A stretch of DNA of 64,000 nucleotides from a virus (lineage: Duplodnaviria > Caudoviricetes). The translations under genes and the position numbers were made by a program. How positions within the stretch are numbered: the stretch's first letter is position 1; the number at the start of each line of letters is the position of its first letter. Below the pieces are notes generated by a model, which saw nothing but the letters and a program-made list of their open reading frames with translations, was not told the origin of the DNA and ran no database searches. The stretch lies in IMG/VR virus record IMGVR_UViG_3300043432_000484, positions 32,001 to 96,000 of that record; one strand, written 5' to 3'. This document shows positions 40,607 through 63,303 of the stretch, piece by piece.

Positions 40607-40780
40607 TCAGTCGGGTACCACCCTTATAAGGGCCGGCACACATACTTTCGTGGACTCGCCACCGTTCACCGACTCCAACTCCTTGTAGACCCCGCCGCGG
40701 GCTTCACAGGACGTGGATGGCTGGAGTGCCAGAGCGGTAAGCCCCGTGACGATCAAGGCGATTACAATCAAGAGCTTCAT
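40607..40780 (-). CDS. Small secreted/membrane protein (57 aa; not in ORF track)
   Basis: MKLLIVIALIVTGLTALA...two Cys; start overlaps the E1 stop. Confidence 0.55.
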   Translation of the reverse strand: MKLLIVIALIVTGLTALALQPSTSCEARGGVYKELESVNGGESTKVCVPALIRVVPD

Positions 40781-41352
40781 CATGTTCTCATCACTCCGCC
40801 CGGGTGGATTGCGTAGTCAAGCTTCTTGCCCCGGAGCAAGAAATCCTGTGCCGCCTTGGCGATCATGGACGACGCCACAGCGATGAACGGAAGGTGCTCT
40901 CCTCCCTCGCACGTGGCTTGCCCGGCCACGTTCTCTGAGTCGATCACGAAGTTTTCGTCCCAGACCACCCGCCCATATGATCCATCTGCAGCCAAGGCCC
41001 CATGCAAGCACGGAGTCTTGGTGTGCCGCGCAAACGCCTGGACGACCTCCCGGGCCGGCGCGTTGTCGAGGCAATCCAGAAGCAGGTCAGCCCCCGAAAG
41101 GAGCTGGGTAGCATTGTCCGTGGTCAGCCGGTGAGGCACCGCCGTAGGCTTGAGCCCGAACAAGAACCCCATCGACTGCTGCAGCGACTGGGCCTTGTTC
41201 TTGCCCACCCCGGGCTTGCTGTGGAACTGGGCGAGCACGTTCTTTTGCTCAATTCGATCCATGTCGATGAGCTTGAGGTCGGCCTCATTCCTAAGAAACA
41301 AAGCCACATGCGAGCCCAGAGCCCCTACGCCTATGATGGTGACCTTTTTCAT
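40780..41352 (-). CDS. E1/ThiF-family ubiquitin-like activating enzyme (minimal)
   Basis: IIGVGALG, IDMDRIEQKN, KNKA, LLLDCLDN, candidate catalytic Cys in ATCEG. Confidence 0.9.
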   Translation of the reverse strand: MKKVTIIGVGALGSHVALFLRNEADLKLIDMDRIEQKNVLAQFHSKPGVGKNKAQSLQQSMGFLFGLKPTAVPHRLTTDNATQLLSGADLLLDCLDNAPAREVVQAFARHTKTPCLHGALAADGSYGRVVWDENFVIDSENVAGQATCEGGEHLPFIAVASSMIAKAAQDFLLRGKKLDYAIHPGGVMRT

Positions 41353-41510
41353 GTTCCCGAACCCGTCTCCTCCTTCTTATCACAGTTTGGACAGAGAGGG
41401 GGAGGATTCCACTCATCATTGGAAGCCGTCTCGCATTCAACCACCGCGCCACAGCGCTTGCACTTGTAGCGCAGCAGTTGAACCCAGTGCTTCCAACCGG
41501 TGAAGTACAT
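41349..41510 (-). CDS. Small Zn-ribbon protein (53 aa; not in ORF track)
   Basis: MYFTGW...YKCKRCG...LCPNCD; overlaps the Ubl stop and the E1 start. Confidence 0.7.
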   Translation of the reverse strand: MYFTGWKHWVQLLRYKCKRCGAVVECETASNDEWNPPPLCPNCDKKEETGSGT

Positions 41511-41764
41511 CAGCCGTCCAGCTGGCCGCCGAATGGCGTCTTGGGGCGCACCGCGACACGGTTCGGGAGGTCATCCTTTGCCGGGAAGCGATCGACCACG
41601 TAATCCGAGAAGTCAGCCGTCTGGGCATCGATACCCGGGACGTTGCCGTTGAGCACTGCCTCCGCGGCCCAACGCTTGATCTCAGCATCGGTAGCGTCGA
41701 ATGGGATCGGGTCGGTCAAGTCCCCGTTGGACCCCGCGAATGTGACGTTCAGGTTTGCTTCCAT
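41510..41764 (-). CDS. Ubiquitin-like (beta-grasp) protein with short C-terminal extension
   Basis: 84 aa between JAB and E1; ends VAVRPKTPFGG-QLDG; RBS AAGGAG. Confidence 0.72.
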   Translation of the reverse strand: MEANLNVTFAGSNGDLTDPIPFDATDAEIKRWAAEAVLNGNVPGIDAQTADFSDYVVDRFPAKDDLPNRVAVRPKTPFGGQLDG

Positions 41765-42219
41765 GTCTCTTCTCCTTGATTGTCAGAACCCTCAGGCTCT
41801 GCGATTGCCTCTACGCTGGACTGCCAACGTCGAACCATGTGATGGTTGTAGTAGGACTTGCCCCGCAGCTCTCCCATCCACGTGGGCTCATATAGCGCAG
41901 GACCCTTGGCGTAGTCAAGCTTCCCTGGCCCAACCCAGCACAGTTCGATGAACTGATCCTCGCTCGTGATCCACCAGACCAACCGGCGGCCCAATCCAGA
42001 CTCGACGGCCGCGAAAGTGGTCAGGTCCGTGTCCGAAGGGCCGGGCTCTCCTGACCCCGGATGACTATGAGCAAAGCCCAGAATGTTGGCGCGGTTCTCC
42101 CAGATGACTTCCCAAAGCTCTCGGGAGTCAGGGAGCGCACCACCACTGCGATCCACCGGCAGATGCCAGTAGATCGGCTCGCAGCCCATTCCAACCAAAA
42201 CTCCAGCTTCAATGCTCAT
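41749..42219 (-). CDS. JAB/MPN+ metalloisopeptidase
   Basis: N-terminal E, HSHP-GSGEPG-PS-DT-D JAMM motif. Confidence 0.88.
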   Translation of the reverse strand: MSIEAGVLVGMGCEPIYWHLPVDRSGGALPDSRELWEVIWENRANILGFAHSHPGSGEPGPSDTDLTTFAAVESGLGRRLVWWITSEDQFIELCWVGPGKLDYAKGPALYEPTWMGELRGKSYYNHHMVRRWQSSVEAIAEPEGSDNQGEETWKQT

Positions 42220-42452
42220 GGCGTTTCTTCTTCCCTAACCGGATACCGATCACCGAAGATCTTGATACACAGTTGCCCAATCTCTTCGTAGGTCAAATCT
42301 CCTGCATTGGTTTTGAGGATAGCCCCCATCACATCTTCGCGTTCGTGAATAGCTAAGCGATACAGAGCCTCAGAAAGGGACTTACGCTCCTTCTCGGTGA
42401 GCTGCTTCGCACGCTCGGCCTCGAAAGCTTCATGCATACCTGGGTGGCTCAT
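42216..42452 (-). CDS. Hypothetical protein
   Basis: Translationally coupled ORF. Confidence 0.6.
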   Translation of the reverse strand: MSHPGMHEAFEAERAKQLTEKERKSLSEALYRLAIHEREDVMGAILKTNAGDLTYEEIGQLCIKIFGDRYPVREEETP

Positions 42453-42748
42453 GGTTCCTCCAACTCGCTGATGACATCCGACAGATCCAACCCAAAGCGT
42501 TCTCCAGTTCTCCGCAGATCCTCAGCAAATCGTGCTTTGGAATGCAAATTGCCCCATTGATCGCTGTACCAACCGGGATGAGCGTTGTCCGCTGGAGCCG
42601 AACCCTCGGAACGATCGTAATCTGAGTCCTCGGACCACCCGCAGCTGGGGCACCCCCACGGGCCATAGATGATCCCCACCCCGACATCCACGGAGTCCTG
42701 TGTGCAATGATCATTGCACTTGGGGCAGTTCAATCTGCCCTCACGCAA
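42449..42748 (-). CDS. Zn-ribbon protein
   Basis: CPKC...VDVGVG...CPSCGW. Confidence 0.6.
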   Translation of the reverse strand: MREGRLNCPKCNDHCTQDSVDVGVGIIYGPWGCPSCGWSEDSDYDRSEGSAPADNAHPGWYSDQWGNLHSKARFAEDLRRTGERFGLDLSDVISELEEP

Positions 42749-42954
42749 TGGAAGAGAACGTCCCGGTCCTCTTCATGAGTGACGAAGCGTCCGTGGCAAT
42801 GCTCCGCCATCAGTTCCCGGGCCTCTTCCATGGCCGGGACGTATGCCCCGGACAGGTGAACCAAACCCCCAAAAGAATCGGTTCGAACGGGGCTGGCTCC
42901 GGAGCTGCACGCCCCAAGGACTAGGGCCAAAATGAGTGCTGTGATGGTTTTCAT
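42730..42954 (-). CDS. Small lipoprotein
   Basis: Lipobox LGAC after hydrophobic leader; RBS GAGGAG. Confidence 0.65.
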   Translation of the reverse strand: MKTITALILALVLGACSSGASPVRTDSFGGLVHLSGAYVPAMEEARELMAEHCHGRFVTHEEDRDVLFHCVRAD

Positions 42955-42964
42955 AGGTAGCTCC

Positions 42965-43927
42965 TCAATCCACGTGCCTGTACACAACCAACTTCCCATC
43001 GCGATCGGCTTCCATGATCACCGAGGGCAGGCTTTCCAGAGTGAACCACGTGTCCCCTTTGGTGCCATACGCGAAATCGTCATCATCCCCGTGTGCGGAG
43101 AGGCAGATCCCAGAATCGATGATCCTTAGCGTGTTCTTGTCACACGTGCACTCGAAACGGCGACGCAGGACCCGGAATCTCACCACCATCTCGTTCCCGC
43201 GATGAGCGGCCCGATGATCCAGGTACTCAGCACCCCCTAGCGCCAACGCGGCGCGAGCTGCCGCTTCAAAGTCCACAGCGGCAATGGCGCGACGCCCGGC
43301 GCCGTCACCTAGGCGACCCATCATTTCTCGGCGAAGCTCTTCCTTGCGGCGTGCTTCCTCCTCCAAGCGCAGCTGTTCGGTTAGCTCCGCTCGGCGACGA
43401 TCCGCTTCGATCCTCTGCCAGCGCGCCATCCGGAATGCAGCGTCCAATGCTGGGACCACACCCTTTACGTGACGAACAGAATCCAGCGCGTCCAAATAGG
43501 CCGTCAGTACCCCATCCTCGGCCCCCAGAGGCATCTCCTGCTGGATAAACACCAAGGACCCATCCTCACTGCAACGCCCGGCTGAAACCAGCACAAAGCG
43601 ATCCAGCCCCGGATCAATCAGATTCACGCGCTCCGACTGAAACGCAATCTTGATCGGGTCCGGGTTCACGTCCACATCGCTCGCAATGATGCGATCCCCT
43701 ACCAGGTAGCCCACCATCTTGTGGCGCAGGTTGGCTGGCTCCGGATCGCTGGCTTCCAGATATCGTGCCTTGCGGCCGTCAAGAGTGAACTTGGCCCAAC
43801 CGTGCTCCGCCGGAAGGGGTCCTTCGAGCGTCCACCCTCTGGGACCAGATCGAAGAGACCTACCTCCAAGCCACGGCAGCACGATCGTGCTGGGCTCACG
43901 GTTCTGAAGTAGGCCTCTCCAATCCAT
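42965..43927 (-). CDS. Protein of the Ubl operon; candidate divergent E2-like conjugase
   Basis: Central coiled coil; C-terminal domain FECTCD...IIDSGICL resembles the E2 G-x-ICL active site; operon context. Confidence 0.5.
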   Translation of the reverse strand: MDWRGLLQNREPSTIVLPWLGGRSLRSGPRGWTLEGPLPAEHGWAKFTLDGRKARYLEASDPEPANLRHKMVGYLVGDRIIASDVDVNPDPIKIAFQSERVNLIDPGLDRFVLVSAGRCSEDGSLVFIQQEMPLGAEDGVLTAYLDALDSVRHVKGVVPALDAAFRMARWQRIEADRRRAELTEQLRLEEEARRKEELRREMMGRLGDGAGRRAIAAVDFEAAARAALALGGAEYLDHRAAHRGNEMVVRFRVLRRRFECTCDKNTLRIIDSGICLSAHGDDDDFAYGTKGDTWFTLESLPSVIMEADRDGKLVVYRHVD

Positions 43928-44630
43928 TGTCGCTCCTGTCCAAACGCTCAAGCCTAGCATGCCATGATTCAAGAGTCTCGCGTGGCAAACGTCTACGAGC
44001 CATCTTCAGTCGAACTTCAGCACTAATCCCAGCCTTTTGCCGTTTGATTCTCTCTTCTCGCTCTTCCTCAGAATATTTAGACCATGCAGCTTTCAACGCC
44101 ACTCTAGTCTTCTCCCTAATCTCTGGGTCTGAATGCTGAATCAAGGCCCTGGCCTTGCGACGTTCTCTCTCCACTGTAGAGTTGAAAGCAATCTTCGTAG
44201 CCCTCTTGTGTCGGGCCTTCACATCAGGTTTAGCCATAGCAGTTTTGACACTGGAACTGTTTCTGGCCTTCACCTCAGGCCGATTCTGAGCAACTACCCC
44301 AGAATTAGATATCTTGCGCTTAGTGTCTTCCGATGGCCGTCCAGCAGCGCCCCCACTTTTCAAGTTGTAGCCCACAGGGAACAAAGAGGTTGCCACCCAT
44401 CGTATCTCCAAAGAGTCCAGCTCCTCTTTGGAAGAAGCCCCTTCCACAACCTCGAACTGGAAGTTGTCTTTCCCGTACTTGGCTATGGCATTACGCAATG
44501 CGTGACAATGACTATCCGAACGAAAATGGTGAACCCACCTCTCCGATGGGTTCACCGTCTGCCCGTGATATAATTTGTCATTCACAAGGCATCGTATTCT
44601 GTACACAATTCCGTAAGTCACACCGCCCAA
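43896..44630 (-). CDS. GIY-YIG homing endonuclease
   Basis: GIVYRI...YHGQT...R, KYGKDNF, EIRWV, GYNL..GG. Confidence 0.9.
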   Translation of the reverse strand: MGGVTYGIVYRIRCLVNDKLYHGQTVNPSERWVHHFRSDSHCHALRNAIAKYGKDNFQFEVVEGASSKEELDSLEIRWVATSLFPVGYNLKSGGAAGRPSEDTKRKISNSGVVAQNRPEVKARNSSSVKTAMAKPDVKARHKRATKIAFNSTVERERRKARALIQHSDPEIREKTRVALKAAWSKYSEEEREERIKRQKAGISAEVRLKMARRRLPRETLESWHARLERLDRSDNGLERPTSEP

Positions 44631-46531
44631 GCTGGTTTGGAGAGGAGCTTGGTGCCCATGATGGTGTCGATCAACGTGACCCGCGGGGTAGCCATGAACT
44701 TAGCTGTGGTGGTGCCCACCGGTGTCGATGCGATCAACGCACTGATGGTGCGGGGGATCGCATAAGGGTCTTGGAAGATGCGCTCATCGATCATGAAGCA
44801 GGGGATTCCCAGCTCCGCTGCCGTAGTTGTGACCGCAGTGTGCGCGTGCCCCATGTTGCCAGGCACGTAGAGGAACCCGAATGCGATCGGGTTGAGACCC
44901 GACTCACGGACGGCTGCCGTGAACGGTGCGTCTTGCTCGTCACCCACGATGATGAAGATCGCATCCTCACCTTCCTTGGGCTTGTACTTCTTCAGAGCCT
45001 TTACACCCTGAGCGTGGCTCGTCCCACCACCGGCATTGATGCCCTTGAAGGCTTGTTCGATGCCAGCTGCCGACTGATGCTTGATCACGACCTCACGCCC
45101 TGTCTGGCTGAACACCGAGACGTGGAGCTGATCCGCCGGGAACCCCTGCAGGAACTTCGCCAAGTACTCCTTGGCCTTCACGATCGCCCCGTCCATCGAG
45201 CCCGAGATGTCGACCATGAAGTAGATGCGAAGGTTCTTGACAACCTCTGCGACAGCCGTCTTGATGGCGTTGTCCGCGGCATCCTTGAGCTGTTCCTGAG
45301 TGGCCTTGGAGCGCACGCGAGTCGCGATGTTCGCAGCACGCATGTCCTCAGCTGTCGCGATAGCCCGGTCCCACCGGTGCTTGATCTCTTGCACCTCCAA
45401 GAGCCCAAGGTCCTCCAACGTCGGAGTCGCGATGATCAGGTCCTTGTCCGACAACGAACCAGCATCGATGGCCACGGCCACGATCGCCCGCGTCAGACCC
45501 ACGCCCTTGGGCAGCAAGCCCACGATGCGCTTGAAGTTCGGCTTGTCCCTTTGGATGAGCTGGCAGATCTGCTCCTCCGAGAGACCTTCCCACGATTCGG
45601 CGGCTTTCACGGCCTCACCGATCGCCATCTGCCGATGCCCGTCATCCGCTTGGATTTGCGGCCAACGAAGTGTCTCGAAGAACTTTTGCGTGTTGGGCTT
45701 GTAGCCCACGCGACGCGCCAGCTCGATCACGGTGCGGCGGAAGCCGGCCTTGACGAGACCCTCCAACATCCGGGGGTTCTCCTCCCGGTAACGCAGCCAC
45801 TTGTCCACGGCCTTGGTCCAACGACCCAAGAACGGGTTGCGCGCCGACTTGCCGAACCCGAGCTGGCGATTGATCTCAGCCACTCCCGGCAAGCGCAGCA
45901 CGTCGTGCACCCGAAGCAGGAGCTTTGGGTTGAAGTCGGTAGCCTTGGAACCAGCGGCCTTCGCCCCCGGCTTCTCCAGGTCCTTGCGACCAAGCAACAG
46001 CATGGCCTCACCGACGTCGCGGTAGTCCTCATCGTGAAACACGAGCTTCCCACCGTCGATGACCGGATCACCCTTGCGCGACTGAACAAGCAAGAATGCA
46101 GCGAGGATCACCTTCAAGTCTCGGTGCTCCAAGCCAAACGCGTAGCTGGCCCACTTGGCGGCGAACTCGTTGTCGAGCTTCCACACTTCCGCGACCTGCT
46201 TGTACATCCACACCGCGACTTCCGGGTAGATGCCAGCGGGCTGGTAGCGACCGATCACGCGATTGCCTTCCTTGACGCGACCGTCGTCCTTCAGCTTGCC
46301 GAGCTTGATCTTGGTGGATTGCTTGCCGGTCTTGCGCAGCTCGTAGACAACCTTGTCTCCCTCTTCGAGCACGTGAGTGACAGGGAGCCACTTCACTCCG
46401 ATCGTGGAGCCGGCGTCGGGGACCACGATGCCGGCTCTCCCATGATGAGCATGGTCCGAATACGCCAGAACTGTCTGAAGTATTCTCTCCGCCGGCCCAA
46501 GATTTTCATTCACATTTGCCATAGTCGCCAT
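44618..46531 (-). CDS. Divergent Ro60/TROVE-like protein with C-terminal VWA domain
   Basis: TROVE-like segments DNEFAAKWASYA..HRDLKVILAAFLL, GRWTKAVDKWL, LARRVGYKP, SWEGLS; VWA FMVDISGSM, GGTS, IVGDEQ. Confidence 0.7.
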   Translation of the reverse strand: MATMANVNENLGPAERILQTVLAYSDHAHHGRAGIVVPDAGSTIGVKWLPVTHVLEEGDKVVYELRKTGKQSTKIKLGKLKDDGRVKEGNRVIGRYQPAGIYPEVAVWMYKQVAEVWKLDNEFAAKWASYAFGLEHRDLKVILAAFLLVQSRKGDPVIDGGKLVFHDEDYRDVGEAMLLLGRKDLEKPGAKAAGSKATDFNPKLLLRVHDVLRLPGVAEINRQLGFGKSARNPFLGRWTKAVDKWLRYREENPRMLEGLVKAGFRRTVIELARRVGYKPNTQKFFETLRWPQIQADDGHRQMAIGEAVKAAESWEGLSEEQICQLIQRDKPNFKRIVGLLPKGVGLTRAIVAVAIDAGSLSDKDLIIATPTLEDLGLLEVQEIKHRWDRAIATAEDMRAANIATRVRSKATQEQLKDAADNAIKTAVAEVVKNLRIYFMVDISGSMDGAIVKAKEYLAKFLQGFPADQLHVSVFSQTGREVVIKHQSAAGIEQAFKGINAGGGTSHAQGVKALKKYKPKEGEDAIFIIVGDEQDAPFTAAVRESGLNPIAFGFLYVPGNMGHAHTAVTTTAAELGIPCFMIDERIFQDPYAIPRTISALIASTPVGTTTAKFMATPRVTLIDTIMGTKLLSKPAWAV

Positions 46532-47015
46532 CCATTTGCTGCTGTGTTACTGAACGACACATCTCCAAGAAATCCTGTAGTTTCCAGTCATTAAGGGATG
46601 CGTTCACAATCCATGCCACTAACCGTACATTGTCCCGCACGTAACCCATTGCAGGGTCGATCCGATCAATGGAGGGCCTCCAGGGTTGTTCCTCACCGCG
46701 CTCACTCACCCCATCGTCCACCAACATGGGCACCCCTGAAAGAGCGCACAAACCATTCTGTGTTGACCATAGATTGAGCACGAAGTCAAGGTCAATCTCA
46801 AAAGCCAGCCCAAACTTCTTGGACCTTATCCTAGCTGACCTTACTCGATGGGCCAACTGCCCCTCAACCGTACGGTATTTGCCTCTTTGGTAGACTTTGG
46901 AACATTCTTTGCACCAAGAGTACACACCGCTGCGAGTGCGGTTAGTTGTCGTAAAATGGGAGATTTCAAGTTCCGTTTTACAGTTACTGCAGCACTTATG
47001 GGTGATGACCGTCAC
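46506..47015 (-). CDS. HNH-type endonuclease with N-terminal Zn finger
   Basis: CSNC...WCKEC; CALSG...PSIDRID...GYVRDNVRLV. Confidence 0.82.
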   Translation of the reverse strand: MTVITHKCCSNCKTELEISHFTTTNRTRSGVYSWCKECSKVYQRGKYRTVEGQLAHRVRSARIRSKKFGLAFEIDLDFVLNLWSTQNGLCALSGVPMLVDDGVSERGEEQPWRPSIDRIDPAMGYVRDNVRLVAWIVNASLNDWKLQDFLEMCRSVTQQQMDGDYGKCE

Positions 47016-48332: not shown

Positions 48333-49520
48333 TCACGCTGAAATGATGTTCAGTTCCTGCTTCACCGAGGACTGCTTGGCCAAAAGGTCAAGTCTGACGT
48401 TCTCTCCACAGGCAGACGCCGTGTCACTCACGGCCATACGCTTTAGGTTGCGAGCGGCATTTACATCGCGGTCGTGCACGCAGCCACATTCCTGGCACGT
48501 CCACTCACGCTCCGACAGGCTAAGCTCCGGCTTGACCGCGTCGCATTCCGAGCATGTCTTGGAGCTGGGGAACCACTGGCTGGCCCATACGACCTTGCAG
48601 CCGTATAGCGCCGCTTTGTAGGTGAGCTGGCGCTTGAACTCGTAGAAGCCCACGTCCGCAATCGCTCTGGAGAGCTTGCGGTTCTTGAGCATGCCTTTGA
48701 CGTTCAGGGTCTCGGCCCCGATGACGCCATAGGTCTTGCACAGGAACGTGGTGAGCTTGTGGAGTGCGTCGTGTCGGATGCACCTGATTCGGTAGTGCAA
48801 CCTCGCAACCTTCATACGCGCCTTCATGCGGTTCGCGGAACCTTTCCGCTTCCTGGACAACGACCGCTGTAGACGCTTCAACTTAGTGAGATTCCTCCGG
48901 AGTGCTTTCGGGTTCTCAAACACCGTCCCGTCCGACAGGGTGGCGAGACGCTTCAGCCCAAGGTCACAGCCTACCGCCGCTTGGTTTTCGCGGATGGGCG
49001 GGATGTGGTTTACCTCGACCTGAAAGCTAGCGAACCACCGGTCGGCAGTGCGGCTAACGACACACGAAACGATGCGACCTTGCAGGCGCAGCGCCTCTTT
49101 CATTCTTACGGTTCCGAGCCGGGGCAAGGTGACGGTCTGACCGTTCACCTCCACCGCGTGGCTCAGCTTGTCCTTGGGGCCGTTGTCGGCTCGGAAGCTG
49201 TCATGACGGCCCTTCTTGTGCGGCTTCGGATACTTGGCGGTGCCTTTGAAGAAGCGCTTGAACGCTTGGCCAAGATTCTTGATGGCTTGCTGCGGTGCGC
49301 ACTTCGTGACTTCGGCCATCCAGGGCCACTCGGATCCTTTGGCCGCGTTCAGCTGGCGGCGTAGTGCTGCCTCGCTGGGCTTCTCGCCCGCTTTATACTG
49401 GCGGCGCCACTCGGACAAGGCCCAGTTGTAGGCAAACCTTGCCGTCCCGGCAGCGCGAGCACAGTACGTGCGCTGCTTGTCCGTTAGGTCAAGCTCCACC
49501 TTGTGGGCCAGCTGAATCAC
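48333..49520 (-). CDS. tnpB: TnpB RNA-guided nuclease
   Basis: HTH ARFAYNWAL, RuvC-I VGCDLG, RuvC-II AETLNV, FPSSKTCSEC...CQECG..HDRDVNAARN. Confidence 0.95.
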   Translation of the reverse strand: MIQLAHKVELDLTDKQRTYCARAAGTARFAYNWALSEWRRQYKAGEKPSEAALRRQLNAAKGSEWPWMAEVTKCAPQQAIKNLGQAFKRFFKGTAKYPKPHKKGRHDSFRADNGPKDKLSHAVEVNGQTVTLPRLGTVRMKEALRLQGRIVSCVVSRTADRWFASFQVEVNHIPPIRENQAAVGCDLGLKRLATLSDGTVFENPKALRRNLTKLKRLQRSLSRKRKGSANRMKARMKVARLHYRIRCIRHDALHKLTTFLCKTYGVIGAETLNVKGMLKNRKLSRAIADVGFYEFKRQLTYKAALYGCKVVWASQWFPSSKTCSECDAVKPELSLSEREWTCQECGCVHDRDVNAARNLKRMAVSDTASACGENVRLDLLAKQSSVKQELNIISA

Positions 49521-50146
49521 TCGGCGGCCTCCACGGTGTCCAGCTTCTTCTTGCGTCGCCCAGCCGACCTACGTCCGTAGACTTTGGCCGAGAAGCTGGC
49601 GATGAGGCTCATCATGTCCTCAACGATTTCCGCCTCGTAGCTCTTGGGCAGCACGTCCTCCATCCACTCGACTTCCACGCCGTGGCTCTGAAGGAACTTG
49701 ACGAAGATGGTTGAGTTGAAGCGTGTGAACCTGTCCTTGTGCTCGATGACCACACGGCCAATCTCGCCCGCGATGGCAAGGTCGAACAGACGGTGGAGCT
49801 TGGGCCGGTTGTCGTTCATCCCGGATCCGACTTCCTCCAGGATGTGCTGGACGTGGTAGCCACGCTTCACGCAATACTCAAGGACGCGGCCTTTCTGGCG
49901 CTCCAGGTCGCCTTTCTGCTTCTGTTCGTTGGAGCTGACTCGACAGTAGGCAGCCACCACAGTGGACTTGGCGGCAAGCTTCCGGGCCTTGCCTTGGAAT
50001 GCCTCCAAAGCCTCGACCAGGTAGCGCCGCTTGCCGCCCGGAGTCCGGACAGCTACAAGCTTACCACCTTCGTCCCAACGGCGAAGCGTAGTGACCGAAC
50101 AGCCAAGCATTTCAGCAGCTTTCGATATTGAGACCAAGCCAGTCAT
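49517..50146 (-). CDS. tnpA: IS607 TnpA serine recombinase
   Basis: MerR-like HTH, RTPGGKRRY, YCRVSS, EVGSG, HKDRFTR, FSAKVYGRRS. Confidence 0.95.
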   Translation of the reverse strand: MTGLVSISKAAEMLGCSVTTLRRWDEGGKLVAVRTPGGKRRYLVEALEAFQGKARKLAAKSTVVAAYCRVSSNEQKQKGDLERQKGRVLEYCVKRGYHVQHILEEVGSGMNDNRPKLHRLFDLAIAGEIGRVVIEHKDRFTRFNSTIFVKFLQSHGVEVEWMEDVLPKSYEAEIVEDMMSLIASFSAKVYGRRSAGRRKKKLDTVEAAE

Positions 50147-57837: not shown

Positions 57838-57847
57838 AAAATCTCTG

Positions 57848-57921
57848 TACCCACCGAGGGAGTCGAACCCTCACCGTTGCGCGTTTTAAGTGCGCTGCCT
57901 CTGCCTTTGGGCTACGTGGGC
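57848..57921 (-). tRNA. tRNA-Leu(TAA), short variable loop
   Basis: CTTAAAA loop, A73. Confidence 0.85.
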
Positions 57922-57929
57922 AAATCTAG

Positions 57930-58004
57930 TAGCGGCGGAGGGAGTCGAACCCTCACTGAATGGGATTTGAAGCCATTGCCTCCTGCCAATTGGGCTACGC
58001 CGCC
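57930..58004 (-). tRNA. tRNA-Leu(CAA), short variable loop
   Basis: ATGGC-TTCAAAT-CCCAT by alignment with its paralogs, A73. Confidence 0.8.
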
Positions 58005-58040
58005 ATGTGACACTAACCAGATCCTACAAATACACCAGGG

Positions 58041-58112
58041 GGGGGCCGACGGGAATCGAACCCGCTACACATGATCCACAATCATGCCGCTAACCAATTG
58101 CGTTCGGTCCCC
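58041..58112 (-). tRNA. tRNA-His(GTG)
   Basis: G-1:C73, CATGA-TTGTGGA-TCATG. Confidence 0.85.
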
Positions 58113-58114
58113 AG

Positions 58115-58188
58115 TGCGGATGGAGGGAGTTGAACCCTCACTTGACGGCTTCTCGAACCGTTGCCTCTGCCAGTTGGGCTACATCCGC
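58115..58188 (-). tRNA. tRNA-Leu(GAG), short variable loop, C33
   Basis: ACGGT-TCGAGAA-GCCGT, A73. Confidence 0.82.
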
Positions 58189-59188: not shown

Positions 59189-59728
59189 GTTCGTATCTAC
59201 CGAATTATGAGCGGCAACCGCTAAGCAAAACTCGACCAAGCTCTCGTCTGAATAGGTGTTCCGAGCAAGATTGGCCATGACGCTAACGAATCTGACATTA
59301 CCCTCCACATAGCCTAAAGAGCAATCGATCCTGTCAAGGCTAGCATTCCTGGGAGATGGGGTTTCCCAACCTGAAGTGCATGAAGGTAGAATCAACTTCC
59401 ACCCCGTAATAGGGCACACACCTTCCTGCGAATTCCATACACTAGACAGATACACCAGGGTCAAACTGGTAGCACCCCGATGGCGTCTATCCTTAGCCTT
59501 AGCCCTCAAAAGGAACCAACGAAACGGAGCGTGCTCGTCTCTGCTTCGAGGACGCAAGTTAGTTAGGTTGCCAGGTCCTGGATGAGTCTTATTGCGTTCG
59601 GTCATTGCACAAGAATGACCGCAAAAGAATCGGGTTCTGCCTTGTTTGACCCAACGATTATGCTCCCTTGTCAATTTCAAAAAGGGGGATGAGCAGTTGG
59701 CACACAGTAGTTCGATCTTGTTAGGCAT
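59180..59728 (-). CDS. HNH-type endonuclease
   Basis: CANC...FCGHSC; CPITG...ASLDRID...GYVEGNVRFV. Confidence 0.82.
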   Translation of the reverse strand: MPNKIELLCANCSSPFLKLTREHNRWVKQGRTRFFCGHSCAMTERNKTHPGPGNLTNLRPRSRDEHAPFRWFLLRAKAKDRRHRGATSLTLVYLSSVWNSQEGVCPITGWKLILPSCTSGWETPSPRNASLDRIDCSLGYVEGNVRFVSVMANLARNTYSDESLVEFCLAVAAHNSVDTNGE

Positions 59729-60084
59729 GGTGGAAACGGGTGGAGTCGAACCACCGTCCAGAAACGATCCGAGACGAGTACTACGAACGTATCCTCTTGT
59801 TGCTACGTGGCTCGGTTCACCAAGAGGCGGCTACCCGGCCACGTTCCGACTGTTTCTAGTGAGTGTCGGTCGGAAACACCTGACTCACCGAACCCTTGTA
59901 CTTTCTCAGCCCTCCGAGCCGCGTCCCCCAAGGGTAGGGAAGCTCGAAGTTTAGCGCCTCAGGCCGCTACGGCAAAACCGTTGTCGTTGGCTTTTGTATC
60001 GTCCAGACAGGATTTACGTGGTCACCTGGACCCACGGTTCGCACTCCATCACTTCAGCGTCCCTGTCGAAACCGGGGCGTTCCC
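59728..60084 (-). ncRNA. ssrA: tmRNA, tag (A)ANDNGFAVAA*
   Basis: 5' GGGAACG...GGTTTCGAC, G3:U70 acceptor, T arm plus ACCA, tag ORF 59991-59959. Confidence 0.95.
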
Positions 60085-60838: not shown

Positions 60839-61306
60839 CTATTCCCTGGACCGATTACCGAATGTAGGAGTTTGCCAATGACAATTAGGGCATAGAAAAC
60901 GTAGGTTGCTCAATCGATTGTCTTTCCAATTTCCATCAACGTGGTCGACAGGGAGGTATAGAGCTTTTCCGTTCCACTCAGGACCTAACCCACACTCAGC
61001 ACATTTATGAGGTATACCTACCTCCAGAAGAGCCCGACGCAGTTGGTGTCCAGGTACCCTTTTTGAGTACCCGTCCCGCAGTATAACTTCAGATGACTTA
61101 CGATTCTTAGGGGGTTCCCCCAGATTATGGCGTAAACCTAGGAAATGAGATGTGTCTATACCGAGTGACAGCACCCTTTCCTTGATGTGGCGAGTCAGAC
61201 CGCCAGATCGATCATTTGCCCCTAACTCTCTCATCATCCCCATCCAGGTTGTGGATCTGGAAGCAGCCGTACTTAGGTCCTCGTTTGTATATTTGACATG
61301 ACTCAT
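60839..61306 (-). CDS. HNH endonuclease
   Basis: CAECG...VDHVDGN..DNRLSNLRFLCPNCH. Confidence 0.92.
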   Translation of the reverse strand: MSHVKYTNEDLSTAASRSTTWMGMMRELGANDRSGGLTRHIKERVLSLGIDTSHFLGLRHNLGEPPKNRKSSEVILRDGYSKRVPGHQLRRALLEVGIPHKCAECGLGPEWNGKALYLPVDHVDGNWKDNRLSNLRFLCPNCHWQTPTFGNRSRE

Positions 61307-61309
61307 TCG

Positions 61310-61381
61310 TCGCTCCATCGGGAATCGAACCCGCAGAGTATCGGCTTATGAAACCGACCCACCCACCTTGAGCGTGGAGCG
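61310..61381 (-). tRNA. tRNA(CAT), Met or Ile2, compact D arm
   Basis: CGCTCCA/TGGAGCG-A, TCGGT-TTCATAA-GCCGA. Confidence 0.8.
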
Positions 61382-61386
61382 ATTGT

Positions 61387-61485
61387 GAGCCGATAGCCCG
61401 CTCAGCCTTCCTGGCAGCCGCTACAAACCTGCAGCCCTAGCCAGTATCTCTGAACGGACACCTTGGGTTTGTCCTCACTCGGCTC
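61387..61485 (-). ncRNA. Unassigned ~99-nt structured RNA
   Basis: Terminal GAGCCGA/TCGGCTC, GTCCGTTCAG/CTGAGCGGGC and CTGGC/GCCAG stems; lies between two tRNAs. Confidence 0.5.
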
Positions 61486-61500
61486 TCGATGAGGCAAGGT

Positions 61501-61577
61501 TGGTAGCGCCGGAGAGATTTGAACTCTCACTGATCCGCCTCTAAAACGGATGCCTCTGCCAGTTGGGCTACGGCGCC
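61501..61577 (-). tRNA. tRNA-Leu(TAG), short variable loop
   Basis: TCCGT-TTTAGAG-GCGGA, ACCA. Confidence 0.87.
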
Positions 61578-61982
61578 ATGTTTTCTAACGTAAGTGCGTA
61601 ACCTGTGACAGTTGGAGCACACCAATTCACACTTGGCTATCTCCCTGAGCAGGGATTCCCTAGATAGGTCCTTCCTACGGGCTATCGTAAACTTCTTGTC
61701 TGACAAGTGATCAAAATCCATCTGTACAGGATGGTATGTTCCCTTGCAATCGGTACAAGGCCCTGATTTCAACTCATTCAACCAAGCCGATGTAATAGGT
61801 ACAACCCTCTTACGCCTGCTGGTAGCCTTGTCCACATACCTCTGCTTGTTATCGGCATAATGGGATTTTGCGTACTCCTTAGCGCACTTCTTGCAGTATG
61901 GTTGAAGAGTGCCCTTGGCCTTGCGTTCCCCGAATGCGTTTGAAGGCAAGTCCCTCTTGCATTTACCAGCACATATTGGCAT
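61527..61982 (-). CDS. HNH-type endonuclease (paralog of 55139-55570)
   Basis: CTDC...MDFDH...EIAKCELVCSNCHRLRT. Confidence 0.85.
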   Translation of the reverse strand: MPICAGKCKRDLPSNAFGERKAKGTLQPYCKKCAKEYAKSHYADNKQRYVDKATSRRKRVVPITSAWLNELKSGPCTDCKGTYHPVQMDFDHLSDKKFTIARRKDLSRESLLREIAKCELVCSNCHRLRTYVRKHGAVAQLAEASVLEADQ

Positions 61983-62403: not shown

Positions 62404-62546
62404 TGGCGCCGTTTCCTGGAGTCGAACCAGAATGTCTTGTGAGGAACTGCTGGGTGCGCCCTTACGGGTGCGAGATGCTGATCCTGGGATAGAGCTTTCG
62501 CTCCAGCTTGAAAGGCTGGTGGGGAACCGGTCCCCTGTAAAACGGC
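62404..62546 (-). ncRNA. RNA-A: tRNA-Glu(TTC)-like RNA with ~70-nt module in the variable region
   Basis: GCCGTTT/AAACGGC-GCCA, CCAGC-CTTTCAA-GCTGG, insert with CATCTC/ACCCAG loop and CACAAG, T arm. Confidence 0.8.
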
Positions 62547-62554
62547 AAAGTCTT

Positions 62555-62626
62555 GCCCGCGTTCGAGATGAGAGACCTGTGTTTGCATTACCTTAGCGTG
62601 TAAGGTCTCTCTTGGTGAACGTGAGC
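62555..62626 (-). ncRNA. RNA-B: stand-alone module hairpin
   Basis: GCTCACGTTC-ACCAA-GAGAGACCT-TACAC...AGGTCTCTC-ATCTC-GAACGCGGGC. Confidence 0.75.
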
Positions 62627-62628
62627 GG

Positions 62629-62741
62629 TGGGCCTTTCCGGAGTCGAACCGAAAAGATCTTGTGTGCACCACTGGGTGGGTCAATCTCTGACCCGAGGTG
62701 ATTGGTGCAGTACTAGTTGGCAGCCACCTGCCAAAAGGCCC
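62629..62741 (-). ncRNA. RNA-C: tRNA-like RNA with no anticodon arm, carrying the module
   Basis: GGGCCTT/AAGGCCC-A, D-like hairpin, CACCTC/ACCCAG loop, CACAAG, TTCGACT T arm. Confidence 0.78.
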
Positions 62742-62809
62742 ATTGAGACATCAGTGTAGAAACCTACTTCTTCTCCGAGGAGAAAGGTAGTGATGCCGGA
62801 CTACCTTAG

Positions 62810-62940
62810 TGGGGAACCTTGGACTCGAACCAAGTTTGCTTGTAAGCGTCGCTAGGTGCTCCCTTGCGGGTGCGAGGTACGATGCTGGTATCGTGCTTTC
62901 GATTTACCGTCGAAGTGGAGGCCAACCCCCCGTATTCCCC
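62810..62940 (-). ncRNA. RNA-D: tRNA-like RNA (GTA in degenerate anticodon loop) carrying the module
   Basis: GGGGAAT/GTTCCCC-A, TACCTC/ACCTAG loop, TACAAG, TTCGAGT T arm. Confidence 0.78.
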
Positions 62941-62972
62941 ATAGTGCTCGTCTTTCCGAGCCGTCAAAATTT

Positions 62973-63115
62973 TGCCCACTTCCGAGTTGAGAGACCTGGT
63001 TGCTTTTTGCCTGTTCCTAAAACGGGTGCCTTGCCAGTCGGCCACATCGGGTTTCCCCAACGGATGGATTCGAACCACCATGATGCGTGTAAGGACTCTA
63101 GGGTGAAAGCGAGCA
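62973..63115 (-). ncRNA. RNA-E: circularly permuted tRNA mimic (YrlA/Y-RNA-like topology)
   Basis: Terminal stem TGCTCGCTTTC/GGAAGTGGGCA, ACCCT/AACTC loop, then T arm, acceptor closed by GAAA, D arm, anticodon-like arm. Confidence 0.82.
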
Positions 63116-63116
63116 G

Positions 63117-63171
63117 CGGACTCCAGGGAGTTGAACCCTGACCAACGGTGGCGGCCTAACCCGCCGAGTCC
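63117..63171 (-). ncRNA. 55-nt mini-tRNA without anticodon arm
   Basis: GGACTC/GAGTCC-G, GGCGG-GTTAGG-CCGCC, ACC-GTT-GGT, CAGGG-TTCAACT-CCCTG. Confidence 0.72.
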
Positions 63172-63303
63172 AAGTAACCGTGACGTAGGAGTACGACCGA
63201 CACAACTAAACCGGAGACACAGACAAGACACCCTGTATGTACACCGAGATGTGGGAGCCGTCAACAGCTACTGGCCAAAAATCGACATCTGGTGTCGAAT
63301 CGG

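What the first reader, a model, noticed from the sequence alone, without database searches (positions are those of the whole stretch)
62404..63115. Five related tRNA-mimic / Y-RNA-like ncRNAs sharing one module, in both linear and circularly permuted topology
Seen (minus strand, hand-folded): RNA-A, -C and -D are tRNA bodies whose variable region carries a stem, an internal loop and a capped hairpin, followed by YACAAG and the T arm. Their loop strands are CATCTC/ACCCAG, CACCTC/ACCCAG and TACCTC/ACCTAG. RNA-E (62973-63115) is the circular permutation: the module is formed by the free ends (ACCCT/AACTC loop, then TACAC), followed by T arm, acceptor stem closed by GAAA, D arm and anticodon-like arm. 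RNA-B (62555-62626) is the module alone (ACCAA/ATCTC, TACAC). Loop nucleotides are conserved while stem sequences differ but still pair. Known: T-acceptor-D order behind a terminal stem is the architecture of bacterial YrlA Y RNAs that bind Ro60. Inference: this is a Y-like RNA family with a non-standard protein-binding loop, and it includes versions with a free acceptor end (A ends GCCA and has a Glu anticodon).
Basis: partly seen in the sequence, partly recalled or inferred. Interest (0 to 1): 0.95.

Follow-up and report, generated by a model that had tools for sequence, protein, structure and literature searches.

The report
Phage tRNA-shaped RNAs sharing one handle
A clade of huge bacteriophages encodes arrays of tRNA-shaped non-coding RNAs that all carry the same small conserved stem-loop-stem "handle", grafted on in several topologies including a circularly permuted one, and these arrays sit next to a very divergent Ro60-like gene, which suggests a new kind of Y-RNA-like particle.

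Summary
None matches an Rfam family, YrlA and tRNA included.

Covariance models built from them find more than 150 full-length relatives in about 50 huge-phage contigs of 100-620 kb. About 91-93% of cells are paired, and compensatory changes far exceed both shuffled and slid controls. RNAalifold recovers the permuted fold of RNA-E de novo: module at the free ends, T arm, closed acceptor hairpin, D arm, anticodon-like arm. A further topology also appears.

Invariant elements are CUC plus a G-C closing pair on one loop strand, and YACA(A/C/U)G after the body-proximal stem. Anticodon loops drift between orthologues, so these are mimics rather than decoding tRNAs.

The 637-aa protein at 44618-46531 is Ro60-like at fold level only. 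It occurs in 18 of 18 near-complete RNA-positive genomes. It usually lies 0.5-6 kb from a permuted RNA on the same strand.

Binding and expression are untested. Best reading: a new Y-RNA-like RNP family. The scan had already noted this family on an overlapping window of the same genome.

The parts
62404..62546 (-). RNA-A: a full cloverleaf (7-bp acceptor, D arm, UUC anticodon-like arm, extra GAGC-GAAA-GCUC hairpin) that ends GCCA. The capped module sits in the variable-arm position at about 62436-62485.
   Evidence: Fold; R1 90 bits. SNPs in related metagenome contigs are structure-neutral, including a compensatory G13A+C25U change in the D stem.
62555..62626 (-). RNA-B: the module alone with free ends. 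It consists of an outer stem, an ACCAA/AUCUC internal loop, a 9-bp inner stem, then UACAC and a 24-nt loop.
   Evidence: Fold z -5.4. R2 gives 46.7 bits over the module ends. Short orthologues of 80-96 nt occur in G003, G001, G011 and G007.
62630..62741 (-). RNA-C: acceptor stem, one 5-bp/4-nt hairpin in place of the D and AC arms, capped module, T arm. Its 3' end abuts RNA-B.
   Evidence: Fold; R1 81.8 bits. The same reduced body is seen in G009 and G001.
62807..62940 (-). RNA-D: a cloverleaf with a GUA (Tyr-like) anticodon loop, CGGUAAA (G at position 33), and the capped module in the variable-arm position.
   Evidence: Orthologues keep GUAAA but vary position 33 (G, U, C; A in a metagenome variant). 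Canonical tRNA-Tyr is also present in relatives.
62974..63114 (-). RNA-E (E1 type): a circularly permuted tRNA-like RNA. The order is module at the free ends, UACAC, T arm, 7-bp acceptor closed by GAAA, D arm, AC-like arm, module 3' strand.
   Evidence: RNAalifold on 8 orthologues. R2 gives 114 bits here and about 38 full-length matches above 50 bits in loci of contigs not used to build the model. Pair counts.
63116..63173 (-). Element F: an anticodon-less mini tRNA-like element ending 1 nt before RNA-E. It probably supplies an RNase P/Z processing site.
   Evidence: ARAGORN calls an odd tRNA. There is a weak mascRNA-like match at 27.9 bits, below gathering. Fold. The processing role is inference.
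44618..46531 (-). Gene for a 637-aa Ro60-like protein (helical-repeat N-terminal domain plus C-terminal VWA). It is the candidate protein partner.
   Evidence: Pfam finds VWA only. Foldseek top 10 for the full model are Ro60/TROVE structures at E about 1e-7. The N-terminal 430 aa alone has Ro60 chains as its top 3 of 48,161 (Z 8.8, 8.5, 7.4; next 6.2). Nearest language-model clusters are TROVE/DUF2828, score 0.78.
40780..43972 (-). Context: a conserved 335-aa protein, a JAB peptidase and a ThiF-like E1 lie downstream of the Ro60-like gene.
   Evidence: Pfam ThiF and Prok-JAB. In G013 the same order is followed directly by a 7-RNA module array.

Best explanation
These are members of a large, previously undescribed family of phage non-coding RNAs. 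A conserved 'handle' is grafted onto tRNA-shaped bodies. The handle is a body-proximal stem, an internal loop with NNCUC on one strand and an A/C-rich strand opposite, a G-C-closed distal stem, and then YACAYG.

In A, C and D the handle replaces the variable arm and is capped, usually by a GNRA loop, while the acceptor end is free and often carries an encoded CCA. In E the same handle is formed by the RNA's own 5' and 3' ends and the acceptor stem is closed, which makes it an exact circular permutation. B is the handle alone. A further form places the handle at the acceptor/D-arm junction.

Shown: the family, its structure and its covariation.

Inferred: the RNAs are cut from a polycistronic array by RNase P and RNase Z acting at the tRNA-like ends, and this also frees the open forms. 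The handle is the binding site for the clade's divergent Ro60-like TROVE-VWA protein. The tRNA-shaped part acts as bait or tether for host tRNA-binding factors, by analogy with YrlA/Ro60/PNPase particles.
For: Structure:
- Folds.
- On the R1 alignments, 90.5% and 91.3% of cells are paired, against about 63% in shuffles and 31-52% when partners are slid. Compensatory cells number 186 and 425, against 51 and 133 in shuffles.
- RNAalifold predicts E1 and E2 de novo, with 25 of 36 and 25 of 29 pairs compensated.
- R2 module helices are 82-93% paired.
- All 9 natural SNPs inside the RNAs are structure-neutral and one pair is compensatory.

Not decoding tRNAs:
- Orthologous bodies carry different anticodon loops, non-7-nt loops or no AC arm.
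- Canonical tRNA-Glu and tRNA-Tyr exist alongside them.

Protein link:
- Ro60-like fold.
- The gene is present in 12 of 12 near-complete (>=90%) contigs found by an RNA pattern alone, and in 30 of 37 overall.
- The RNAs are present in 12 of 12 contigs found by the protein.
- The nearest E1 RNA is on the same strand in 22 of 22 contigs, within 6 kb in 18, and 0.56 kb upstream in G013.
- The small ORFs flanking the array are not conserved.

Precedent:
- Phage Ro60 binds phage-encoded Y-like RNAs (PMC12135203).
- M. smegmatis YrlA is cut by RNase P and gains CCA (PMC4201824).
Against: - No binding or expression data exist.
- The canonical Ro60 motif (GNCGAAN0-1G/CGAA) is absent and the YrlA model does not match.
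- Pfam TROVE misses the protein. The fold match has modest Z (7-9) with rmsd of 12-17 A, and Foldseek on the N-terminal domain alone gives nothing significant.
- Co-occurrence and synteny lie within one phage clade, so shared ancestry could explain them.
- In G014 the E1 RNA (the only RNA type located in that contig) lies about 200 kb from the gene, and in this window 16 kb.
- The arrays are embedded in ordinary tRNA islands, which also cluster near the gene.
Confidence: 0.55

Rival explanations
1. The RNAs are real tRNA mimics, but their partner is not the Ro60-like protein. They may act as decoys or sponges for host tRNA-targeting defence nucleases, synthetases or modification enzymes. The handle would then be a stabilising or tertiary-docking element (for example a GNRA-loop receptor) or the site of another phage protein, such as the conserved 335-aa neighbour.
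For: - Bodies imitate several tRNA types. The D type keeps GUAAA while position 33 varies, which looks like recognition by a protein rather than by the ribosome.
- GNRA hairpins recur beside the handle.
- The arrays sit inside tRNA islands.
- A conserved 335-aa protein and a Ubl/E1/JAB set also travel with the locus.
Against: The only strongly conserved RNA-binding-type protein tied to the arrays in every near-complete genome is the Ro60-like one. Short flanking ORFs are not conserved. No test separates these options yet.
Confidence: 0.3
2. A, C and D are working, aminoacylated tRNAs with an oversized class-II-like variable arm that are used in translation. B and E are decayed or by-product copies.
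For: - A and D have full cloverleaves and 7-bp acceptor stems, and many orthologues end in NCCA.
- Bacterial tRNA-Tyr naturally has a long variable arm, and the D type keeps GUA.
Against: - Anticodon loops differ between orthologous bodies (UUC, CUU, UUG, UCC and others). U33 is often G, A or C. Some loops are 4 or 9 nt, and C lacks an anticodon arm.
- Canonical tRNAs for the same anticodons are present.
- The tRNA model scores none of them above threshold.
- B and E types are conserved with covariation, not decaying.
Confidence: 0.05
3. The handle is an intron-like processing signal. Cleavage and ligation at the loop would remove it from A, C and D and would circularise E, as with archaeal or algal permuted tRNA genes.
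For: E has the gene order of a permuted tRNA, with acceptor ends joined by 4 nt. The handle sits at sites where non-canonical tRNA introns can occur.
Against: - The loop is a roughly symmetric 5x5 internal loop, not a bulge-helix-bulge.
- No splicing endonuclease was seen among the window ORFs scanned.
- The products would still lack conserved anticodons.
- B has no tRNA body.
- The distal stem and its GNRA cap are conserved, which is unexpected for a discarded intron.
Confidence: 0.05

Closest known systems
Bacterial and phage YrlA Y RNAs (Rfam RF02553; Chen et al. 2014, PMC4201824)
   Same: - tRNA-mimicking non-coding RNA.
- RNA-E has the order 5'/3' terminal stem, YUAY-type motif, T arm, closed acceptor-like hairpin, D arm.
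- Encoded near a Ro60-type gene and on the same strand.
- M. smegmatis YrlA even acquires a free CCA acceptor end.
   Different: - No match to the YrlA model, and no GNCGAAN0-1G motif.
- The terminal stem leaves from the variable-arm position and a full anticodon-like arm is kept.
- The conserved element is an NNCUC/G-C internal loop plus YACAYG.
- The same element also occurs capped inside otherwise normal cloverleaves and at the acceptor/D junction.
Thermus phage phiLo Ro60 with Yrl1/Yrl2 (PMC12135203; PDB 9KOP, 9L5Y)
   Same: A phage-encoded Ro60 homologue with phage-encoded partner RNAs beside the gene. The RNAs have a stem-bulge-stem design. 9L5Y is among the top structural matches of the protein here.
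   Different: The phiLo RNAs carry the CGAA motif and are not tRNA arrays. The protein here has an extra N-terminal beta domain, is missed by Pfam TROVE, and sits beside a Ubl/E1/JAB gene set.
Class II tRNAs (long variable arm) and allo-tRNAs
   Same: An extra helix emerges between the anticodon and T arms of a cloverleaf. The D type has a Tyr anticodon.
   Different: The arm is about 45-50 nt or more (up to about 70) with a conserved internal loop. Anticodons are not conserved, and permuted and body-less forms exist.
Circularly permuted tRNA genes of red algae and archaea (PMC3978253)
   Same: The 3' part of the tRNA is encoded before the 5' part, with the acceptor ends linked.
   Different: There is no bulge-helix-bulge motif and no conserved anticodon. 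The permuted form appears to be the end product rather than a precursor.
mascRNA-type tRNA-like processing signals
   Same: Element F and the capped RNAs directly abut the open RNAs, so RNase P/Z cuts would define their ends.
   Different: The resemblance is sub-threshold only (27.9 vs 42.5 bits). This is a bacterial or phage setting, and the role is inferred.

Membership tests
YrlA / bacterial Y RNA (RF02553) | Scores at or above the Rfam gathering threshold (69 bits) | tested here: not met
   No match to any of the five RNAs even at E<=10. The best hits in the genome are 19 bits, on ordinary tRNA T arms.
YrlA / bacterial Y RNA (RF02553) | [quoted passage not shown] | tested here: not met
   The 5' strands read, for example, CUUUC-ACCCU-AGAGUCC (E) and CGUUC-ACCAA-GAGAGACC (B). 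The motif is also absent in the 8 E1 orthologues.
YrlA / bacterial Y RNA (RF02553) | T arm, closed acceptor-like stem-loop and D arm, in that order, enclosed by a stem formed from the 5' and 3' ends | tested here: met
   Met for RNA-E and the E1 type. Not applicable to A, C, D and B.
YrlA / bacterial Y RNA (RF02553) | Encoded close to, and on the same strand as, a Ro60 orthologue | tested here: met
   Same strand in 22 of 22 contigs, with a median gap of about 3 kb. The gap is 16 kb in this window and about 200 kb in G014.
YrlA / bacterial Y RNA (RF02553) | Physically bound by Ro60 | not testable with these tools
   Needs co-purification or a gel-shift assay.
tRNA (RF00005) | Scores above the tRNA model threshold and is called by a tRNA finder | tested here: not met
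   None of A-E is reported by cmscan or ARAGORN. ARAGORN mis-calls some E2 cores using a 4-of-7-pair acceptor stem.
tRNA (RF00005) | 7-nt anticodon loop with U33, and an anticodon conserved among orthologues | tested here: not met
   Loops and anticodons differ between orthologous bodies. Position 33 is G, A, C or U in the D type.
Ro60 (TROVE + VWA) for protein 44618-46531 | Pfam TROVE domain (PF05731) | tested here: not met
   No hit on the protein, nor in six-frame searches of 5 genomes. The control D. radiodurans is positive.
Ro60 (TROVE + VWA) for protein 44618-46531 | C-terminal von Willebrand A domain | tested here: met
   VWA_2 at 7.5e-8 over residues 437-529. Z 14 to VWA structures.
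Ro60 (TROVE + VWA) for protein 44618-46531 | N-terminal helical-repeat ring with the TROVE fold | tested here: inconclusive
   In an unbiased search of the N-terminal domain alone, the top 3 of 48,161 chains are Ro60s, but with Z of only 7.4-8.8 and rmsd of 12-17 A. The full-length Foldseek top 10 are Ro60. Foldseek on the domain alone finds nothing significant. Nearest language-model clusters are TROVE/DUF2828 at 0.78.
Circularly permuted tRNA genes (BHB-processed) | Bulge-helix-bulge motif formed by the precursor ends | tested here: not met
   The ends form a 9-bp stem, a 5x5 or 5x6 internal loop, and a 7-9-bp stem.

The most novel reading that the evidence does not exclude
The handle may be a portable docking motif that plugs tRNA-shaped baits of several identities into a phage machine built from a Ro60-like ring and the adjacent E1 (ThiF), JAB, Ubl and 335-aa proteins. 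Such a particle would capture host tRNA-binding factors, for example anticodon nucleases. It would then either mark them by ubiquitin-like conjugation or use the Ubl/E1 pair as a sulfur relay to modify the RNAs. Either way, this would be an RNA-mimic-guided counter-defence or RNA-modification system with no described equivalent.
Probability: 0.12. Interest if true: 0.95.

Novelty: new variant of a known kind. Interest (0 to 1): 0.8.

Why it matters
The scaffolded design is unusual. One small motif is kept intact while being moved between the variable arm, the free ends of a permuted tRNA and the acceptor/D junction. That gives a natural experiment on how an RNA-protein docking site can be transplanted.

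If the partner is the Ro60-like protein, three things follow. A second, non-CGAA recognition code would be defined. RNA-B would serve as a roughly 70-nt minimal ligand for structural work.

It also matters for annotation. These RNAs are missed or mis-called by tRNA finders and inflate the apparent intergenic space of huge phages.

Tried and rejected
- Rfam at gathering and at E<=10: only ordinary tRNAs and the tmRNA, with no ribozyme, YrlA or Y RNA match.
- blastn of the locus against 50,697 phage records: no match.
- First two sequence-pattern scans of IMG/VR: only coding or chance hits.
- My first crude regular-expression descriptor missed A, C and E. The looser open-form scanner gives many false positives genome-wide and was used only as a lead.
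- MAFFT mis-aligned B with E, so that alignment was not used.
- phmmer and a profile of the protein against PDB sequences: only VWA-level or noise hits.
- PHROGs: nothing for the protein.
- pdb_via on the full model was swamped by VWA domains.
- Foldseek on the N-terminal domain alone: nothing significant.
- Virus Rctr197k has the protein (57.6% identity) but no R1 match. One E2-type copy was found there by scan and fits alignment A8.
- GTDB genome scan: mostly chance hits. Real R1 matches came only on MAG contigs (four of 4-23 kb, one of 94 kb) labelled Methylobacter, Myxococcota, Sorangium and Proteobacteria. These are host leads only.
- No RNA holder was listed among the public sequencing runs, so expression and ends could not be examined.
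- Language-model search on the 335-aa neighbour: uninformative.
- Literature searches found no description of this RNA family.

Full report
**Where the window lies.** The window is bases 32001-96000 of a 132.7-kb IMG/VR huge-phage fragment that CheckV estimates to be 28% complete. It carries 26 ARAGORN-called genes: 25 tRNAs and one tmRNA. All of these, and the finding itself, lie on the minus strand.

**The observation.**
- Unconstrained MFE folds give cloverleaf-like bodies for A, C and D. Each carries a long arm between the anticodon region and the T arm: a stem, an internal loop of about 5x5 nt, and a second stem capped by GUAA, GAGAU or GCAA.
- B folds as stem, ACCAA/AUCUC loop and a 9-bp stem (z -5.4).
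- E keeps the same element at its free ends.
- When the loop is viewed from the tRNA body outward, it is the same in both topologies: C-AYCUC-G on one strand and C-ACCNA-G on the other.
- Neither Rfam at gathering nor Rfam at E<=10 assigns these RNAs to any family. The YrlA model RF02553 scores nothing above 19 bits in the whole record, and those hits are ordinary T arms.

**Comparative support, capped form.**
- I built model R1 from A, C and D, covering the module plus the T arm.
- I searched 12 related contigs that had been fetched through the neighbouring VWA protein. All 12 have full-length matches, with E down to 5e-14, and usually several per contig.
- On the resulting alignment, 90.5% of cells are paired, against 63.7% in shuffles and 31-52% when partners are slid. 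There are 186 compensatory cells against 51 in shuffles.
- A scan of IMG/VR with an RNA-only pattern found 81 stretches, mostly in contigs of 100-620 kb.
- R1 confirmed 77 matches in contigs not used before. These show 91.3% pairing and 425 compensatory cells against 133.
- These alignments were fitted to the model, which favours the structure. The slid controls and the de novo predictions described below argue that the signal is real.
- Column profiles show near-invariant CUC, the G of the closing pair and ACA(A/C)G, and a GNRA-like cap. The opposite loop strand is only A/C-rich. Part of that conservation was imposed by the search pattern.

**Comparative support, open forms.**
- A simple scanner followed by folding showed open-ended copies in nearly every relative, in three kinds.
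- E1 has the architecture of RNA-E.
- E2 runs: module ends, UACACG, D arm, anticodon-like arm, T arm, small GNRA hairpin.
- The third kind is short B-like RNAs.
- RNAalifold on MAFFT alignments, with no input from me, returned these structures. It found 25 of 36 pairs (E1) and 25 of 29 pairs (E2) showing compensatory change.
- Models R2 and R3 find about 38 and 39 full-length matches in loci of contigs not used to build them.
- The three module helices of R2 are 82-93% paired, with many double changes.
- The permuted topology is therefore a conserved design and not a local accident.
- The present genome has two further E2 copies just beyond the window, making seven in all.

**Micro-variation.**
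- Contigs from four other metagenomes differ from the window at nine positions inside the RNAs.
- Two changes form a compensatory G-C to A-U swap in the D stem of A.
- One change turns G-C into G-U in the distal stem of C.
- One change turns GUAA into GCAA.
- One change keeps a conserved non-Watson-Crick position in the distal stem (A.C to A.A, as in D).
- The remaining four fall in loops: the D loop of A, the cap loop of C, the variable Y of AYCUC in B, and position 33 of D.

**Are they tRNAs?**
- Almost every capped match sits in a body with a 7-bp acceptor stem, and many end NCCA.
- However, orthologous bodies carry different anticodon loops. A-like bodies show UUC, CUU, UUG and UCC. Some loops have 4 or 9 nt, and C-type bodies lack the arm altogether.
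- E1 and E2 loops are likewise unconstrained.
- Only the D type keeps GUAAA, and it does so with G, U, C or A at position 33.
- Canonical tRNA-Glu is present in this genome and canonical tRNA-Tyr in relatives.
- I read them as mimics.

**Processing.** Arrays alternate capped and open RNAs with gaps of 1-10 nt. F abuts E, C abuts B, and A starts 8 nt after B. The same pattern appears in G010. RNase P and RNase Z cuts at the tRNA-like ends would release the open forms. This is inference, with mascRNA and M. smegmatis YrlA as precedents.

**The protein.**
- ORF 44618-46531 hits only VWA families in Pfam.
- It has more than 1,400 homologues, the best 120 of which are 60-83% identical, several on contigs of 280-660 kb.
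- An AlphaFold2 model (pLDDT 79) has Ro60/TROVE structures as its ten best Foldseek matches, at E about 1e-7 but TM of only 0.2-0.34.
- The N-terminal 430 residues were modelled alone (pLDDT 81). Foldseek found nothing significant for them.
- In an all-against-representatives search, the three Ro60 chains were ranks 1-3 of 48,161: Z 8.8, 8.5 and 7.4, with the next hit at 6.2 and rmsd of 12-17 A.
- Language-model neighbours are TROVE and DUF2828 clusters, at a weak score of 0.78.
- No Pfam-detectable TROVE gene exists elsewhere in five of these genomes.
- I therefore call the protein Ro60-like at the level of fold and architecture, not a demonstrated Ro60 orthologue.

**The link between RNAs and protein.**
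- Thirty of 37 contigs found through the RNA pattern alone carry the gene, including 12 of 12 that are at least 90% complete.
- All 12 contigs found through the gene carry the RNAs, including 6 of 6 complete ones.
- From the coordinates, the nearest E1 RNA is on the same strand in 22 of 22 contigs.
- The gap is 0.56-6 kb in 18 contigs, 9-16 kb in three (this window is one, at 16.4 kb), and about 200 kb in one (G014).
- The RNA can lie upstream, downstream or on both sides of the gene.
- In G013 the order is: tRNAs, E1 RNA, two tRNAs, the Ro60-like gene, a conserved 335-aa protein (55% identical to window 42965-43972), JAB, ThiF, then seven module RNAs.
- This matches the criterion used to define YrlA genes, namely within about 4 kb and on the same strand.
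- All of these phages are relatives, however, and the arrays lie inside tRNA islands. Shared ancestry is therefore not excluded.
- The small ORFs flanking the array here are not conserved.

**Comparison with what is known.**
- Phage Ro60 homologues with adjacent Y-like RNAs are established, in mycobacteriophages (PMC4201824) and in Thermus phage phiLo, where binding and a PNPase complex were shown (PMC12135203).
- Jumbo-phage TROVE proteins have been noted before (PMC7824862).
- What differs here is the recognition element (no CGAA motif), its position on the tRNA scaffold, and its re-use in at least four topologies in multi-copy arrays.
- I found no paper describing this family.

**Verdict.** The Y-RNA-like reading is the best available and is partly supported. 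Binding, transcripts and the role of the tRNA-shaped part remain to be shown.

Noticed in passing
window 40780-46531 (-); L293 2005-6403 (-): The Ro60-like gene heads a conserved same-strand cluster: a 335-aa protein of no known family, a JAB peptidase and a ThiF-like E1. In G013 the cluster runs straight into a 7-RNA module array, and Rctr197k has a ThiF-like gene about 7 kb downstream. This could be Ubl conjugation or a sulfur relay.
   Followed up: partly
window 63116-63173 (-): A mini tRNA-like element with no anticodon arm ends 1 nt before RNA-E. It gives a sub-threshold mascRNA-like match (27.9 bits).
   Followed up: partly
G000 97765-97884 and 98104-98227 (-), i.e. 1.8-2.2 kb beyond the window end: There are two more module RNAs of the E2 type. 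The second seems to have lost its 5' outer strand. ARAGORN calls its core tRNA-Asn(att) using an acceptor stem with only 4 of 7 pairs.
   Followed up: partly
window 57847-58188 and 61501-61577 (-): Four of the five tRNA-Leu genes are only 75-77 nt long, which is too short for the long variable arm expected of bacterial tRNA-Leu.
   Followed up: no
window 59728-60084 (-): A phage-encoded one-piece tmRNA (134.8 bits) with tag ANDNGFAVAA. A relative (G005) has tag ANYNGFAQAA.
   Followed up: no
window 43896-44630, 46506-47015, 48333-50146, 60839-61982 (-): Mobile elements are interspersed among the tRNA genes and lie between the Ro60-like gene and the RNA array: GIY-YIG and HNH endonucleases and a TnpB (OrfB_IS605) with a resolvase. 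This probably explains why the gap is 16 kb here against about 3 kb in relatives.
   Followed up: no
L175, L185, L202, L207, L221: The only R1 matches in the GTDB genome set lie on MAG contigs (four of 4-23 kb, one of 94 kb) binned as Methylobacter, Sorangium, Myxococcota and Proteobacteria. These may be mis-binned phage contigs or host hints.
   Followed up: no
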